Source: a virus (Duplodnaviria > Caudoviricetes). From it: 64,000 nucleotides of DNA. Numbering within the stretch: position 1 is the first letter of the stretch; every line of letters begins with the position of its first letter. Position numbers and translations under genes: made by a program. The stretch spans positions 114,043 to 178,042 of IMG/VR virus record IMGVR_UViG_3300029305_003884; one strand, given 5' to 3'. Below are positions 41,789 through 54,294 of the stretch, one piece after another. The notes below the pieces were generated by a model, which did not search any database, was not told the DNA's origin, and saw nothing but the letters and a program-made list of their open reading frames with translations.

Positions 41789-42445
41789 ATGAACAACAAC
41801 GAATACTTTGGACAGCCTCAGCAGCCGCAGCAACCTCAATACGCCCCTCAGCAGGGGTATCCTCAGCAGCCGCAGTACTATCCGCAACAGGGTTATCCCC
41901 AGCAGGGATATCCGCAACAGGGTTATCCGCAGCAGGGTTATCAACAGCCAGTCGGAAACCCTGGTATCATGCCCCCTGGTGCGTACCAGCAGCGCCCCCA
42001 GTTTGAAGGACAGGGGTATCAGCAGGGAAGACCGAACACGCTTCCTGGTGGTCAGAGAATCGTGGAATCTCCGTACGGAAACGATACCGATGCGGCAACA
42101 CGGGACTACTGCAACCAGATTGATGCCGATGGACGACTCGAAGAGTTGAACAAAGCACTCGACATGATTAACGGAACCGCCGAAAATCCTGGCGTCGAGG
42201 GAAACATCTATGCTATGAACCAGAAGATGGAATCGGTCAGGAAAAACGGCAACACTGGAATCACCGACAGGCAGAATCTTTTTGCCGTCCTCAATTCCAT
42301 GGAACAGTTGGCACAGATTGTTTCCGACCCTGCTTCTTGGTTCCCGCAAGGCAGTCAGGAACAAGTGCCGAAGTTCAAGCCGCTTCTCAGCAAACTTGCT
42401 GCGGGTCTTCGGAACTACATCGAGAAATTGAAGATGTTGAACTAA
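41789..42445 (+). CDS. Protein with N-terminal PQQGY-repeat (prion-like) domain and helical C-terminal domain
   Basis: The first ~85 aa are Q/P/G/Y-rich with five PQQGY units. Confidence 0.8.
   Translation: MNNNEYFGQPQQPQQPQYAPQQGYPQQPQYYPQQGYPQQGYPQQGYPQQGYQQPVGNPGIMPPGAYQQRPQFEGQGYQQGRPNTLPGGQRIVESPYGNDTDAATRDYCNQIDADGRLEELNKALDMINGTAENPGVEGNIYAMNQKMESVRKNGNTGITDRQNLFAVLNSMEQLAQIVSDPASWFPQGSQEQVPKFKPLLSKLAAGLRNYIEKLKMLN
41846..41941 (+). repeat. 15-bp coding repeats (PQQGY)
   Basis: CCNCA(A/G)CAGGGNTAT repeated. Confidence 0.85.
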
Positions 42446-51187: not shown

Positions 51188-51210
51188 TTCCCTCAAATTA
51201 TTTGAGGGAA
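51188..51210. terminator. Inverted repeat (terminator or operator) upstream of the sigma gene
   Basis: TTCCCTCAAAT-T-ATTTGAGGGAA near-perfect palindrome. Confidence 0.6.
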
Positions 51211-51260: not shown

Positions 51261-52055
51261 GTGGATTACTGTAAGATAACACCATGCATAAAGGCAGAAC
51301 TTAACAAATCGGTTACAATGAGTCGGGAAGAGGAGCGTCGGCTGTTTGAAGAGTATGCGAGCAGCACGGACGAGGCCCGAAAGAAGGAAATCTTTGACAA
51401 AATCATCGTGGCTAACCTGAAGTTTGCGTTCAAGATGGCCAGCGATAAGGCTAAGGAATGTGACAAGTCCATTGATGACCTGTTTTCCGAGGCAAAAATC
51501 GGTTTGATTGAAGCTTTTAACAAGTACGACCCCCATGTGGGAACTAAATTCATCTCGTTTGTCGTGTGGTATGTACGCCGTGCGTTGAACACATTCGTTT
51601 CCGACGATGACTTAATCAGGATTCCTATCGCCTTGAAGGCGAACGTTTCCAAGAAGCGTCGCCTGAATGAGACGGAGTACACCGAGAGGGAAGACCACGC
51701 CAAGGAAGTGATGGCTAACTTGAAGCAGTCAGTCAAGGCTTCCAAGGAAGATGACAACGATTCCATCAGCAACGAGGCGCCAGACGTCAGTTCAGACGGT
51801 ATTGCCGAGCTGGAACACGACAACATGAAGGATACTCTATGGAAGATGCTGGAAAATAGCCTTGACAGCAAGGAACTCTACATCATGAGGTATTCGTTCG
51901 GTTTGAAGGATGATGTCATCCTTCCTGCTGCCGACATTGCTGCAAACCTCAACATGAAGAAGAATGAGTTCCAGAAAATCAAGAAGGCCGCATACGAGAA
52001 AATAGCCAAAAACAAGGAATTTTATAGTCTTTTGAAAGAGACGGTAAATTCGTAA
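51261..52055 (+). CDS. Sigma-70 family RNA polymerase sigma factor
   Basis: Region 2 'IVANLKFA..DDLFSEAKIGLIEAFNKYDP..KFISFVVWYVRRAL..IRIP'; region 4 'ELYIMRYSFGL..IAANLNM'. Confidence 0.92.
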   Translation: MDYCKITPCIKAELNKSVTMSREEERRLFEEYASSTDEARKKEIFDKIIVANLKFAFKMASDKAKECDKSIDDLFSEAKIGLIEAFNKYDPHVGTKFISFVVWYVRRALNTFVSDDDLIRIPIALKANVSKKRRLNETEYTEREDHAKEVMANLKQSVKASKEDDNDSISNEAPDVSSDGIAELEHDNMKDTLWKMLENSLDSKELYIMRYSFGLKDDVILPAADIAANLNMKKNEFQKIKKAAYEKIAKNKEFYSLLKETVNS

Positions 52056-52957
52056 TGTTCAAATTTATCAAGCGATTTTTTAAAGGAGAGAAGCATATGC
52101 TACACGATGAACCGACAATAGCCACCAGTGGCCAGTCAATCAGCGATGTTCCTAACGGTGAACCGACGATGTCTAACAGCGAAGCTGCAAGACAGATTCA
52201 GGAAGCAGCCGAACTGGCTAACAAGAGCCCTCTCGGTATCATACCTGGACAGGTTAACCGTAAGCAACCGCAGCAACAGCGTCCTATGCCAAAACAGCAG
52301 GGTCCTGTCGCACAGTACAATAACTACCAGCAGCCGCCAGTCAACAATGTCCAGCGTGTTGCTCCCGCACAGATGGTTGCCCAGCCGTTGCCACAGGCAC
52401 CGCAGCCTATTCCGCAACAGCCAGTACAGCCGCCTCCACCGCAGTACTATCAGCAGCCTCAGCAGTATTACCCGCCGCAGGGCTATCCTCAGCAGGGTTA
52501 TCCGCAGCAGCCTTACTACCAGCCGCAGATGCCGATGGCTCCCATGCAGCCTGTTCCGCAGGCTCCGCAGGCCCCGCAGATGAGCGACGGATTCGGTGCC
52601 CCGTTCTCCGAGATGTATGTTACGAGTGACCAGGTGTACGAATGCTATATCGACCTACCTGGCATCCCGCAGAGCGACCTCAAGGTAAGGGTTGTACAGA
52701 ACAGTCTTGAAGTTAGCGGTGTCCGTAAACTTCATTCGGACGCACCGTCTGCTGGAAAGAAGAACAAGAGAATTAAGGTGCTTGCAGCACAGTCTAGTGT
52801 CCCTGCTTACTTGTTGAACCACTTCAAGTTTACTTTCCCGTTTGCTAAACCTGTCGATGAGGACAATGTGAAGGCGGTCTTGGAAAACGGTCAGCTACAT
52901 GTTACCATCAACATCCTGTCTAGTGAAAAGGGTGTAAATGTGAATATCGGTATCTAG
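52055..52957 (+). CDS. Hsp20/alpha-crystallin protein with long Q/P/Y-rich N-terminal extension
   Basis: 'IDLPGIPQSDLKVRV..LEVSGVRK..FPFAKPVDEDNVKAVLENGQLHVTI' is an alpha-crystallin domain. Alternative start at 52097 after AAGGAG. Confidence 0.88.
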   Translation: MFKFIKRFFKGEKHMLHDEPTIATSGQSISDVPNGEPTMSNSEAARQIQEAAELANKSPLGIIPGQVNRKQPQQQRPMPKQQGPVAQYNNYQQPPVNNVQRVAPAQMVAQPLPQAPQPIPQQPVQPPPPQYYQQPQQYYPPQGYPQQGYPQQPYYQPQMPMAPMQPVPQAPQAPQMSDGFGAPFSEMYVTSDQVYECYIDLPGIPQSDLKVRVVQNSLEVSGVRKLHSDAPSAGKKNKRIKVLAAQSSVPAYLLNHFKFTFPFAKPVDEDNVKAVLENGQLHVTINILSSEKGVNVNIGI

Positions 52958-52966
52958 GAGGTTACC

Positions 52967-53317
52967 ATGAAGACGATTGCAGAAATTATCAATGCCAACT
53001 ATGTCCTGGTGCCACTCCTGAGAGATACGAACATGGGGTACATGGTCACTGAACGTGGAGACATGAACGACTACGAATGGAGAGTGTGGCGTAGGGCTAC
53101 TGAAATCAGGAATGTCAAGCAGCTCATGAACAGCAAGGTCATGTCCAAGAAGACGCCTGCAGAAATCCGTCTAGGACTCATGAAGATTGTCGAGTATCTG
53201 AAGTCAGAGGGAGTTGATGCTGCCCTTGTCGGAACGGTAGCGGCAAACGACCTGAGAGTCAAGGCGTATGAAGCCCAGTCTGAAACGACGGCTACGTTCA
53301 ACGATGAAGAACTCTGA
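52967..53317 (+). CDS. Hypothetical protein (116 aa)
   Basis: Strong RBS AGGAGG; in the sigma/Hsp20 operon. Confidence 0.75.
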   Translation: MKTIAEIINANYVLVPLLRDTNMGYMVTERGDMNDYEWRVWRRATEIRNVKQLMNSKVMSKKTPAEIRLGLMKIVEYLKSEGVDAALVGTVAANDLRVKAYEAQSETTATFNDEEL

Positions 53318-53331
53318 TTTACCGTTGAGGG

Positions 53332-53341
53332 TATAAACTAG
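53332..53341 (+). promoter_or_regulatory. Late-type promoter variant TATAAACTAG
   Basis: 9 of 10 bases match the motif. Confidence 0.55.
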
Positions 53342-53344
53342 AAT

Positions 53345-53476
53345 ATGGAAAGGGGGCCCAACGTGGTCCCTCTTTTCATTTGCCAGAGGGAAACTCCCGA
53401 CGGCATGAAGGTTTTGGCAAACTGTTGGAACCTTTGTACACTCAACGGTCGGCACACTGTCGACAGGAGAATAACT
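53345..53476 (+). ncRNA. Structured leader (four hairpins) upstream of the second Hsp20; the first hairpin is also terminator-like
   Basis: Stems at 53345-53379, 53381-53405, 53407-53435 and 53448-53464, several with G-U pairs; RBS AGGAGA at 53465. Confidence 0.45.
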
Positions 53477-53908
53477 ATGGACGCATACGGAACACTACCC
53501 GCACTGAATGACATCTATGAAACGGTGTTCGACATTTTCAACCCCAAGAAATACGGTCGCCCGATTTTCCCTTATGCATTCAAGAAGGCTACCATCAAGA
53601 ATCCTGAGACTCAGAAGGACGAAGAAGTCCTGATTGTGGAGATTGCCGTTGTCGGCTGCTCCAAGAAAGATGTCAAGGTGAAGGCGTCGGGTAACGTGAT
53701 TACGGTTACTGCTGCCACACCGCAGGACCCCGTTTCCTATGTCACTTACTATGATTACATCAAGAGGCCGAACTTCACGTTCTCTTGGACGTTCCCTTGT
53801 ATCTACGATGTGGCCAATGCCGCAGCTACGGTCAATGATGGCCTTTGCTCTATCGCAGTAAAGAAAAAGCCCGATAGTGGAGAGAAGGAAATCGTGGTTG
53901 GTGAGTAA
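53477..53908 (+). CDS. Hsp20 small heat shock protein (IbpA-like)
   Basis: 'IVEIAVVGCSKKDVKV..VITVT..FTFSWTF..ATVNDGLCSIAV..KEIVV' with the C-terminal IxI/V motif; RBS AGGAGA. Confidence 0.85.
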   Translation: MDAYGTLPALNDIYETVFDIFNPKKYGRPIFPYAFKKATIKNPETQKDEEVLIVEIAVVGCSKKDVKVKASGNVITVTAATPQDPVSYVTYYDYIKRPNFTFSWTFPCIYDVANAAATVNDGLCSIAVKKKPDSGEKEIVVGE

Positions 53909-53925: not shown

Positions 53926-53956
53926 AAAAAGCCCACTGATTTTTCAGTGGGTTTTT
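53926..53956. terminator. Bidirectional terminator
   Basis: AAAAAGCCCACTGA/TCAGTGGGTTTTT between convergent genes. Confidence 0.88.
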
Positions 53957-53958
53957 GT

Positions 53959-54294
53959 TTAATGTCCGCAGTTGCAGCTTTTCTTGACCTTCGCTATTGT
54001 CCGTCGAACAACTCCGCTGGCTTTGTACACTGCTTTCAGACCCTTTGTTTTCAACGACGGTGGAAGAATCCACATGAAGTCGAGAATTGCAGGGAAGTCT
54101 TTGCTCATGCGGTCTATCGCCATGGTTCCCGTGTATGTCGAGCCGTTTGCATCGGTATACTTGAAGTCCTTGGCGTCCGAACCTGCATCGAGATAGTCTA
54201 CGACATCTTCACTCACCTTCGTCTTAATCAGGCGAATGTAGCTGCTGCAGACTGGACAGCTGGCATCATAGTAGATTTTAGGTTTCAATGTCAT
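53959..54294 (-). CDS. DCC1/DUF393-like thiol-disulfide oxidoreductase
   Basis: N-terminal 'IYYDASCPVC' (DxxCxxC); RBS AAGGAG. Confidence 0.8.
   Translation of the reverse strand: MTLKPKIYYDASCPVCSSYIRLIKTKVSEDVVDYLDAGSDAKDFKYTDANGSTYTGTMAIDRMSKDFPAILDFMWILPPSLKTKGLKAVYKASGVVRRTIAKVKKSCNCGH

What the first reader, a model, noticed from the sequence alone, without database searches (positions are those of the whole stretch)
52055..52957. Phage Hsp20 fused to a prion-like Q/P/Y/G domain (possible sequestrase)
Seen: about 110 aa of Q/P/Y-rich sequence, including QYYPPQGYPQQGYPQQPYYQ, precede a complete alpha-crystallin domain. Established: yeast Hsp42 uses an N-terminal prion-like domain to sequester misfolded proteins, whereas bacterial and phage sHsps normally have short N-termini. 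Inference: a phage-encoded condensate-forming chaperone that could concentrate assembly intermediates or trap host proteins.
Basis: partly seen in the sequence, partly recalled or inferred. Interest (0 to 1): 0.75.

Follow-up and report, generated by a model that had tools for sequence, protein, structure and literature searches.

The report
Giant-phage chaperone with long disordered head
A roughly 420-kb gut phage encodes a small heat-shock chaperone with an unusually long, conserved, glutamine/proline/tyrosine-rich disordered head, one member of an undescribed virus-only family always encoded next to a phage sigma factor; whether the head makes it clump proteins into droplets as in yeast Hsp42 is untested.

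Summary
ORF 52055-52957 (+) encodes 300 aa: a real alpha-crystallin domain (Pfam HSP20 E=1.8e-9; Foldseek probability 1.0 to solved sHsps) behind a ~107-aa region with 31% Q, 28% P, 9% Y and no charge over 76 residues.

The extension is translated and conserved. All 56 full-length homologues have it. An ACD-only search of 1.8 billion proteins returns mostly 230-390-aa proteins with the ACD at the C-terminal end. No true short form was found.

- an N-terminal basic amphipathic peptide;
- a ~55-aa head with a helix and an I/V-P-G motif;
- an I/V-x-I/V motif at the extreme C-terminus;
- a likely internal second start;
- an invariant operon with a sigma-70-family factor (15/15 loci).

A second protein in the window (41789-42445) carries the same Tyr-Pro-Gln-Gln repeat.

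"Prion-like sequestrase" is only partly supported. Tyr clusters and absence of charge resemble the Hsp42 PrLD. Against it, 28% proline argues against amyloid, Tyr enrichment is not family-wide, and P/Q-rich linkers occur in other proteins of this phage, such as its SSB. Condensation is untested.

I classify it as a new variant of a known kind. This scan has noted Q/N-rich Hsp20 heads before in other genomes, for example a Halomicrobium operon.

The parts
51261..52055 (+). Sigma-70-family sigma factor gene (264 aa from the GTG; an ATG lies at 51318). Its stop overlaps the sHsp start (TAATG). First gene of the operon.
   Evidence: Pfam Sigma70_r2 9.5e-7. phrog_351 1.4e-26. NCBIfam RpoD/RpoS-type alignments over aa 14-250. 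A ~265-276-aa sigma homologue lies directly upstream of the sHsp, with gaps of -4 to +20 nt, in all 15 related loci that have upstream sequence.
52055..52957 (+). Long-headed small heat-shock protein gene, 300 aa.
52055..52093 (+). N-terminal basic amphipathic peptide (aa 1-13, MFKFIKRFFKG...; net charge +4).
   Evidence: Hydrophobic moment 0.85 at 100 degrees, higher than 99% of the N-termini of this genome's own long ORFs. The same hydrophobic/basic pattern recurs in relatives with ~30% ACD identity, e.g. MLKFLKRFFG. AF2 does not model it as a helix and pLDDT is below 50.
52083..52099 (+). AAGGAG (52083-52088) followed by an in-frame ATG (52097, Met15). Candidate internal start giving a 286-aa isoform without the amphipathic peptide.
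   Evidence: GGAG or GGAGG lies 6-10 nt before a conserved internal Met in 8/8 loci from two clades. The same signal precedes only 2.9% of internal in-frame ATGs in this genome, against 21% of first ATGs. The first ATG has no SD. Many gene callers chose the second Met.
52100..52261 (+). Conserved non-repetitive head (aa 16-69): a P-T-[LI] strand-like motif, invariant G35, a predicted helix at 41-56, and an I-I-P-G-Q-V motif at 62-67.
   Evidence: Alignment A1 has P64, G65 and Q66 at >=90% and G35 invariant. Helix 41-56 appears in the AF2 model at pLDDT ~55. A hydrophobic-x-hydrophobic-P-G motif is also present in remote subfamilies.
52262..52585 (+). Uncharged Q/P/Y-rich low-complexity region (aa 70-177), with a Tyr-rich core at aa 128-157.
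   Evidence: Composition and charge. pLDDT is below 50 throughout. The region is in frame with variable length in all homologues.
52607..52927 (+). Alpha-crystallin domain (aa 185-291).
52934..52954 (+). C-terminal tail ending in an I/V-x-I/V motif (I-G-I at the last three residues).
   Evidence: The motif is conserved at the extreme C-terminus across the family, with variants such as V-x-V, I-A-I and I-P-I. It is disordered in the monomer model.
52967..53317 (+). 116-aa ORF of unknown function with a strong SD (AGGAGG). Same operon.
   Evidence: No Pfam, PHROG or NCBIfam hit. Not detectably related to the small ORFs that follow the sHsp in L003 and L008.
53331..53908 (+). Second sHsp unit, canonical size. 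It comprises a late-promoter motif (TATAAACTA at 53332), a leader, SD AGGAGA plus ATG at 53477, and a 143-aa Hsp20. A terminator hairpin follows at 53927-53956.
   Evidence: Pfam HSP20 7.9e-7 and phrog_432 7.8e-8. The motif occurs 27 times in the window against 11.5 expected. Sequence, terminator. No BLASTP similarity to the long sHsp's ACD.
41789..42445 (+). Second protein with the same Tyr-Pro-Gln-Gln-Gly repeat (218 aa): a ~80-aa Q/P/Y/G head plus a helical C-terminal part of unknown function.
   Evidence: The repeat is retained, with copy-number variation, in 120 homologues of >=78% identity. The protein is present in both complete 420-kb relatives.

Best explanation
**What it is (shown).** This is a genuine, translated gene for one member of a virus-restricted, previously undescribed sHsp family found in very large T4-like phages.

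**Family architecture (shown).**
- N-terminal basic amphipathic peptide.
- Conserved ~55-aa head ending in a hydrophobic-x-hydrophobic-P-G motif.
- ~100-aa uncharged Gln/Pro-rich disordered region. In this clade it is studded with Tyr doublets.
- Alpha-crystallin domain.
- Extreme C-terminal I/V-x-I/V motif.

**Most likely mechanism (inferred).** It acts as an ATP-independent holdase of the aggregase/sequestrase type.
- The ACD dimerises and oligomerises through the terminal I-x-I motif, as in other sHsps.
- The long head supplies several weak 'stickers': the amphipathic peptide, the I-P-G motif, and Tyr/Met residues spaced along an uncharged Q/P 'spacer'.
- These stickers bind non-native proteins and bridge sHsp oligomers, so that clients are collected in large co-assemblies.

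**Expression (partly shown, partly inferred).** The gene is transcribed with the phage sigma factor from a non-late promoter, so it is made before the burst of late structural proteins. The phage's second, canonical-size sHsp is made from a late promoter. Two isoforms, with and without the N-terminal peptide, are probably produced from two starts.

**Untested.** Whether the co-assemblies are liquid condensates.

The confidence given (0.45) is for this mechanism; identity as a conserved long-headed phage sHsp is about 0.95.
For: **Identity and fold.**

**Family-wide architecture.**
- All 56 full-length homologues are 237-330 aa.
- The only form shorter than 165 aa is cut by a 639-bp contig end.
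- With the ACD alone as query, nearly all of the top ~45 of 96 hits are 229-387 aa with the ACD at the C-terminal end. Canonical 140-160-aa sHsps appear only at E>1e-6.
- In 43 representatives the median NTD is 167 aa and the median Q+P after aa 60 is 41%.

**Selection on composition.** The LCR stays Q/P-rich, with 47% GC DNA, in relatives whose loci are 34-37% GC. It turns Asn/Pro/Met-rich only at 30% GC.

**Disorder.** pLDDT is below 50 over most of aa 1-180.

**Sticker features.**
- Amphipathic peptide with hydrophobic moment 0.85.
- P64, G65 and Q66 conserved at >=90%.
- Terminal I/V-x-I/V motif.
- Tyr doublets.

**Precedent.**
- Hsp42 PrLD tyrosines are essential and contact substrates (PMC5881502).
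- Aromatic and Met residues of the NTE, plus the CTE, are needed for sequestrase activity, which is widespread among sHsps (PMC9458469).

**Timing and operon.** There is no late motif before the sigma/sHsp unit, whereas one precedes the second Hsp20. The sigma stop overlaps the sHsp start. Adjacency holds in 15/15 loci.

**Viral origin.**
Against: - No functional data of any kind exist.
- Tyr enrichment is not universal in the family: median 3.7% in the NTD, and YY doublets in 15 of 43 representatives. If Tyr stickers were the key, they should be more conserved.
- Proline at 28% favours extended, non-associating chains.
- The same phage uses P/Q-rich segments as plain linkers, for example in its gp32-like SSB.
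- A long NTE does not predict sequestrase activity: C. elegans Hsp-43, with a 108-aa NTE, was negative.
- AF2 gives no confident contact between the head and the ACD and does not model the N-terminal peptide as a helix.
- The beta6-loop region (aa 224-255) is modelled with low confidence, so the dimer type is unknown.
Confidence: 0.45

Rival explanations
1. Membrane-tethered sHsp. The N-terminal basic amphipathic peptide is a membrane-targeting helix of the MinD/FtsA/SepF type. The P/Q-rich region is an extended spacer, as in ZipA or FtsK, that holds the chaperone domain tens of nanometres from the inner membrane. This would suit membrane-associated steps such as T4-type prohead initiation or membrane-protein handling. 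The internal start would give a soluble isoform.
For: - The peptide is the most widely conserved feature of the head, with a recurrent M-x-x-F-[IL]-K-x-x-F pattern across subfamilies.
- Its hydrophobic moment is 0.85, in the top 1% of this genome's N-termini, and its net charge is +4.
- The conserved internal SD+ATG would remove exactly this peptide.
- P/Q-rich segments serve as linkers elsewhere in this phage.
- The resemblance to the MinD, SepF and FtsA targeting sequences and to the ZipA and FtsK P/Q linkers comes from my own knowledge. It was not tested here.
Against: - AF2 does not predict a helix for aa 1-13.
- Similar aromatic/basic N-terminal motifs in sHsps, such as the conserved Phe-rich motif of alpha-crystallins (own knowledge), act in oligomerisation rather than membrane binding.
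- There is no membrane-related gene in the conserved neighbourhood.
- The Tyr-rich repeats and selection for Q/P against AT pressure go beyond what a passive spacer needs.
Confidence: 0.2
2. Partner-specific adaptor rather than general chaperone. The conserved head (aa 16-69) binds the co-transcribed sigma factor or RNA polymerase, acting as an anti-sigma, co-factor or thermosensor. The Q/P region would be only a flexible, solubilising linker to an sHsp-type oligomerisation domain.
For: - Sigma-to-sHsp adjacency with overlapping or near-overlapping stop and start holds in 15/15 loci. These span ACD identities down to ~30% and locus GC from 30% to 56%.
- The gene directly downstream of and coupled to a sigma factor is classically its anti-sigma factor (own knowledge).
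- The head is conserved in sequence, unlike the LCR.
Against: - The whole region is syntenic in these phages: a DCC1-like gene and terminase also keep their places. Adjacency may therefore only reflect conserved gene order.
- The head has no resemblance to known anti-sigma domains in Pfam or NCBIfam.
- No interaction test could be run.
Confidence: 0.12
3. Assembly scaffold or chaperone dedicated to virion morphogenesis, as proposed for cyanophage HSP20. The Q/P/Y region would recognise the matching repeat on the late protein at 41789-42445, or other phage proteins.
For: - Only two proteins in the 178-kb record carry the Tyr-Pro-Gln-Gln repeat. The other lies in a late tail-gene operon.
- The repeat is kept in all 120 homologues of that protein.
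- A scaffolding role for phage HSP20 has been suggested in the literature (PMC7674155).
Against: - The partner protein was found only in close relatives, whereas the sHsp architecture is far older.
- In a distant relative the only other Q/P/Y-headed protein is a DnaB-like helicase, not a structural protein.
- The sHsp itself is not behind a late promoter.
Confidence: 0.1
4. True prion or amyloid-forming domain that switches the chaperone into a self-propagating aggregated state.
For: The region is Gln-rich and uncharged with Tyr, and superficially resembles Q/N-rich oligopeptide repeats of yeast prion domains (own knowledge). Aromatic residues promote prion formation (PMC6059496).
Against: - Proline is 28% and evenly spread. 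Pro was significantly depleted among prion-forming isolates in one of two libraries, and Pro breaks cross-beta structure (established knowledge).
- A lytic infection cycle offers no obvious use for heritable states.
Confidence: 0.03

Closest known systems
Cyanophage sHsps (e.g. HspSP-ShM2 of Synechococcus phage S-ShM2; PHROG 432)
   Same: Both are encoded by T4-like myoviruses. Both have an alpha-crystallin domain followed by a C-terminal L/I-x-I/V anchoring motif, and an ATP-independent chaperone is expected (PMC3827213, PMC5028025 and PMC8546028, abstracts). The window's second, 143-aa Hsp20 does match PHROG 432.
   Different: [quoted passage not shown]
Yeast Hsp42 (sequestrase with an N-terminal prion-like domain)
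   Same: Both have an exceptionally long disordered N-terminal extension in front of the ACD, with an uncharged segment containing Gln and clustered Tyr (PMC5881502). Both are paired with a canonical-size sHsp in the same genome.
   Different: The Hsp42 PrLD has 17.4% Tyr and 17% Q+N and is followed by an acidic IDD. Here the figures are 9% Tyr (27% in a 30-aa core), 35% Q+N and 28% Pro, with no acidic subdomain. Here there is also a conserved non-repetitive head and an amphipathic N-terminal peptide. Homology of the extensions was not tested because no Hsp42 sequence was on hand, and is not expected. Function is unknown here.
E. coli IbpA/IbpB two-sHsp system
   Same: Two divergent sHsps are encoded close together. 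IbpA shows partial sequestrase activity in yeast (PMC9458469).
   Different: Ibp proteins have short N-terminal regions and are heat-shock regulated host genes. Here the two genes have different promoters (non-late and late) and their ACDs are not alignable by BLASTP.
Bacterial P/Q-rich flexible linkers (ZipA, FtsK, the SSB intrinsically disordered linker) and terminal membrane-targeting amphipathic helices (MinD, FtsA, SepF)
   Same: The shared layout is a short terminal basic amphipathic peptide, a long uncharged Pro/Gln-rich spacer and a folded interaction domain. This phage's own gp32-like SSB has a ~110-aa P/Q/M-rich linker before an acidic DDDLPF tip.
   Different: The comparison rests on composition and layout only, and for the cellular proteins on my own knowledge. 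No sHsp with such a tether is known to me. The Tyr-rich repeats are not typical of these linkers.

Membership tests
Small heat-shock protein / Hsp20 (PF00011) | Alpha-crystallin domain: a beta-sandwich of 7-8 strands. | tested here: met
   Pfam 38.1 bits against a cut-off of 20.8. AF2 pLDDT 80-90 with seven strands. Foldseek probability 1.00, TM (target) 0.6-0.76 to many solved sHsps.
Small heat-shock protein / Hsp20 (PF00011) | C-terminal I/V-x-I/V anchoring motif. | tested here: met
   The last residues are I-G-I. Equivalent motifs sit at the extreme C-terminus in all aligned relatives.
Small heat-shock protein / Hsp20 (PF00011) | Dimer and higher oligomer formation, and holdase activity. 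| not testable with these tools
The beta6-loop region 224-255 is modelled at pLDDT ~55.
Hsp42-type sequestrase | Unusually long disordered N-terminal extension. | tested here: met
   About 184 aa lie before the ACD, with pLDDT below 50 over most of them. This is conserved family-wide.
Hsp42-type sequestrase | Tyr-rich, Q/N-containing PrLD, whose Tyr residues are essential in Hsp42. | tested here: inconclusive
   Tyr is 9% over 106 aa and 27% in the 30-aa core with YY doublets. However, Tyr enrichment is absent in most remote family members, and Pro is 28%.
Hsp42-type sequestrase | Second, acidic IDD that modulates foci number. | tested here: not met
   No acidic segment is present. Only one acidic residue occurs between aa 67 and 180.
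Hsp42-type sequestrase | Drives misfolded proteins into foci in vivo. | not testable with these tools
   This needs experiments.
Prion-like domain (PLAAC/PAPA sense) | Q/N-rich, low-charge, low-complexity stretch of >=60 aa. | tested here: met
   Q+N is 35%, and a 76-aa stretch has no charge. PLAAC and PAPA themselves are not installed and were not run.
Prion-like domain (PLAAC/PAPA sense) | Few prolines, so compatible with cross-beta assembly. | tested here: not met
   Pro is 28%. Pro was depleted among prion isolates in one library.
Terminal membrane-targeting amphipathic helix (MinD/FtsA/SepF type) | Short terminal peptide with basic and hydrophobic helical periodicity. | tested here: inconclusive
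   The hydrophobic moment is 0.85 (top 1% of this genome's N-termini) with charge +4, and the pattern is conserved. AF2 predicts no helix. Membrane binding is not testable here.

The most novel reading that the evidence does not exclude
The long-headed sHsp is the scaffold of a phage-built, membraneless or membrane-anchored compartment. Two isoforms and several stickers on a Q/P spacer would drive network formation. Other phage proteins would be recruited through matching Q/P/Y heads: the late protein at 41789-42445 in this clade and a DnaB-like helicase in a distant relative. This would be a bacterial-virus counterpart of eukaryotic chaperone-organised condensates, switched on together with the phage's own sigma factor.
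Probability: 0.12. Interest if true: 0.85.

Novelty: new variant of a known kind. Interest (0 to 1): 0.55.

Why it matters
Phage sHsps have been studied only as short, canonical cyanophage proteins. Why viruses carry them remains unsettled, with host protection and capsid scaffolding both proposed.

This finding defines a separate, virus-only family with a fixed and elaborate N-terminal architecture. It is conserved down to ~30% ACD identity in huge phages and always sits in an operon with a phage sigma factor.

The family offers a compact bacterial system for asking how disordered N-terminal extensions programme sHsp behaviour: holdase, sequestrase, tether or condensate scaffold. That question is currently addressed mainly with yeast Hsp42. 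It also bears on how giant phages manage the folding load of hundreds of genes.

The Gln-to-Asn switch of the repeat under AT pressure, with Pro and Met kept, is a natural experiment on which features of such regions are under selection.

Tried and rejected
- **blastn and tblastn of the locus or protein against 50,697 deposited phages:** no match. The ACD alone gave one weak hit in an uncultured 484-kb phage.
- **PHROGs:** no family for the long sHsp.
- **Fold of the second repeat protein (A3):** mean pLDDT 43, helical C-terminal part only. This is too poor for a fold search, so none was run.
- **ORFs after the sHsp:** the 116-aa ORF here is not detectably related to the small ORFs in the same position in L003 and L008.
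- **Search for the second repeat protein in distant relatives:** absent from three records, but these are 9-59% complete, so this is uninformative.
- **Rejected: the LCR is a by-product of nucleotide bias.** Its DNA is 61% GC in a 47% GC genome, and it stays Q/P-rich in 34-37% GC relatives.
- **Rejected: the extension is an annotation artefact or untranslated.** The N-terminal peptide, head motifs and reading frame are conserved across clades. The overlapping +2-frame ORF 52128..52583 is a low-complexity shadow.
- **Considered: a T4-type capsid-targeting leader.** The N-terminal peptide does not resemble the shared late-protein leader described in earlier notes on this genome. I did not test this further.
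- **Literature:** no paper in the library combines phage sHsps with prion-like or amphipathic N-terminal features. The Jug-phage paper mentions no Hsp20, chaperone or sigma factor.
Full report
**1. The observation**

ORF 52055..52957 (+) is open and encodes 300 aa. The quoted 20-mer is at aa 137-156. Residues 70-175 are 31% Gln, 28% Pro and 9% Tyr, with Gly at only 3%. No charged residue occurs between R101 and D178, and the 30-aa core at 128-157 has 8 Tyr in three YY doublets plus two singles.

Only two ORFs in the 178-kb record reach this Q/P/Y density.

The C-terminal part is a real alpha-crystallin domain:
- Pfam HSP20 covers aa 190-291 at E=1.8e-9, above the gathering score.
- The AF2 model has pLDDT 80-90 over 185-287.
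- Foldseek gives probability 1.00 to solved non-metazoan sHsps.

One correction: about 69 non-repetitive residues precede the low-complexity region.

**2. What genome this is**

The window is the 3' part of a 178-kb IMG/VR viral record that CheckV rates 42% complete. It carries baseplate-wedge and collagen-like tail-fibre genes. It also has a recurrent TATAAACTA motif in front of many genes, 27 copies against 11.5 expected, reminiscent of T4 late promoters.

Close relatives of the gene lie on complete records of 419,423 and 422,150 bp with direct terminal repeats. Earlier notes of this scan call these T4-like jumbo phages of ruminant guts. I verified the genome size but not the habitat.

No deposited phage genome has a close relative.

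**3. Is the extension real and conserved?**

Yes, by three independent routes.

(a) All 56 full-length homologues are 237-330 aa and have the long head. The single shorter protein is truncated by the end of a 639-bp contig.

(b) With only the ACD+tail (125 aa) as query against 1.84 billion cluster representatives, nearly all of the best ~45 of 96 hits are 229-387 aa with the ACD at the C-terminal end. Ordinary 140-160-aa sHsps appear only at E>1e-6.

(c) In 43 such representatives the median head is 167 aa, with a median of 41% Q+P after residue 60.

The reading frame is kept through many length changes. ESM Atlas neighbours are unnamed, HSP20-bearing, 83-100% viral clusters.

**4.

Alignment A1 and the ACD-retrieved set show a fixed order of parts.

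(i) An N-terminal basic amphipathic peptide:
- Its hydrophobic moment is 0.85, exceeded by only 0.8% of this genome's other N-termini.
- The pattern recurs in subfamilies with ~30% ACD identity.

(ii) A conserved internal Met:
- It is preceded by GGAG(G) at 6-10 nt in 8/8 loci from two clades.
- That signal precedes 2.9% of internal ATGs in this genome.
- The first start has no SD. It overlaps the sigma stop (TAATG) or is GTG/TTG in distant clades.
- I infer two isoforms.

(iii) A head with a P-T-[LI] motif, invariant G35, a helix at 41-56 (pLDDT ~55) and a hydrophobic-x-hydrophobic-P-G motif, with P64, G65 and Q66 conserved at >=90%.

(iv) The uncharged low-complexity region.

(v) The ACD.

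(vi) An I/V-x-I/V motif at the very C-terminus.

**5. What is selected in the low-complexity region?**

- In relatives whose loci are 34-37% GC the region is still Q/P-rich and its DNA is 47% GC. The composition is therefore held against mutational bias.
- At 30% GC it becomes Asn/Pro/Met-rich, with NMNNP-type repeats.
- The conserved property is thus an uncharged amide-plus-proline chain with a hydrophobic residue (Tyr, Met, Val or Ile) about every fifth position. Several clades show VYQQP-type repeats.
- Tyr itself is enriched only in some clades. The median is 3.7% in the NTD, and 15 of 43 representatives have YY doublets.

**6. Context**

A sigma-70-family factor lies directly upstream in 15/15 loci, with gaps of -4 to +20 nt. 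A convergent DCC1-like gene and terminase follow in the relatives.

No late motif precedes the sigma/sHsp unit. An AT-rich region after a hairpin at 51188-51210 is the likely promoter.

Two genes downstream, a second, canonical-size sHsp (143 aa from ATG 53477) has its own late motif, leader and SD. A terminator follows at 53927-53956. Its ACD is not alignable to the first by BLASTP.

**7. Shared repeat**

- DNA identity to the sHsp repeat is only 82-86% over 40-60 nt with differing codons.
- All 120 homologues of this protein, at >=78% identity, keep the repeat with copy-number variation.
- Its fold could not be modelled.

In the distant relative G003 the only other Q/P/Y-headed protein is a DnaB-like helicase.

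Plain P/Q-rich segments without Tyr occur in this phage's gp32-like SSB, as a linker before an acidic tip, and in a 245-aa protein. P/Q disorder is therefore a house style of this phage. The Tyr-bearing repeat is specific to two proteins.

**8. Mechanism**

Established knowledge:
- sHsps dimerise through the ACD.
- They build oligomers by docking the C-terminal I-x-I motif into the beta4/beta8 groove.
- They bind clients mainly with disordered, aromatic-rich N-terminal regions.

Findings from the papers read:
- Sequestrase activity is widespread among sHsps.
- It depends on aromatic and Met residues of the NTE together with the CTE.
- It does not need a PrLD, and a long NTE alone does not confer it (PMC9458469).
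- In Hsp42 the Tyr-rich PrLD binds substrates and is essential. Whether its deposits are liquid is unresolved (PMC5881502; PMC13287201).

On this basis my best reading is a holdase/aggregase whose head is a multivalent sticker-and-spacer arm, made with the sigma factor before late protein synthesis. I put this at 0.45, while identity as an sHsp is about 0.95.

The rivals are:
- a membrane-tethered sHsp (0.2);
- a sigma/RNAP-specific adaptor (0.12);
- a morphogenesis scaffold (0.1);
- a true prion (0.03).

None can be separated further without interaction predictions, which were unavailable, or experiments.

**9. Comparison and novelty**

The protein is a member of the Hsp20 family, since both defining sequence features are met. 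It works perhaps like Hsp42, but it fails one Hsp42 feature (no acidic IDD), and the Tyr-rich criterion is inconclusive. As a 'prion-like domain' it meets the Q/N and charge criteria but not the low-proline one.

Known phage sHsps (cyanophage, ~18 kDa, short arms) differ in architecture. I found no description of this family in the literature.

I rate it a new variant of a known kind, of moderate-to-good interest. The family-level architecture and the sigma operon are solid and new. The condensate idea remains a hypothesis.

This scan has flagged Q/N-rich heads on Hsp20 domains before in unrelated genomes, so long amide-rich sHsp heads may be a recurrent solution.

Noticed in passing
window 52083-52099, and L003, L010, L011, L014, L017-L019 at the equivalent place: A conserved internal Met is preceded by GGAG(G), which is encoded by conserved Gly-Glu or Gly-Gly codons. 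The long sHsp is therefore probably made as two isoforms, with and without the N-terminal amphipathic peptide.
   Followed up: partly
window 41789-42445: A 218-aa late-operon protein has four to five YPQQGY repeats nearly identical to the sHsp core, attached to an unmodelled helical domain with no family match. The repeat copy number varies among 120 close homologues.
   Followed up: partly
G000:C1:109522-110952 (outside the window; L035:523-1953): The gp32-like ssDNA-binding protein (Pfam gp32 9.6e-10) has a ~110-aa Pro/Gln/Met-rich disordered linker ending in an acidic DDDLPF tip. This resembles the bacterial SSB linker and tip rather than the T4 gp32 tail.
   Followed up: partly
L025:6002-7714 (distant relative G003, 224 kb): A DnaB-like helicase carries an N-terminal Q/P/Y/M repeat head (PQYTAPQQMM x3). 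It is the only other Q/P/Y low-complexity protein in a genome whose sHsp has VYQQP repeats.
   Followed up: partly
window 53331-53908: The second Hsp20 is a canonical 143-aa sHsp behind its own late-promoter motif and a ~135-nt leader. Its ACD shows no BLASTP similarity to the long sHsp, so the two are ancient or independently acquired paralogues.
   Followed up: partly
L008:1791-2651 (30% GC relative): The low-complexity region of the orthologous sHsp is built of NMNNP and NP repeats instead of Q/P/Y. This is a Gln-to-Asn switch under AT pressure with Pro and Met retained.
   Followed up: partly
window 53959-54294 (-): A convergent DCC1-like/thioredoxin-like CxxC gene is kept next to the sigma-sHsp pair in distant relatives (L004, L007, L008). 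Together they form a conserved three-gene block of unknown joint meaning.
   Followed up: no
protein P0177: A homologue of the repeat protein on a 418-kb contig is labelled by NCBI as coming from a Bacteroidaceae MAG. This is probably a phage genome binned with its host, and is a weak host hint.
   Followed up: no
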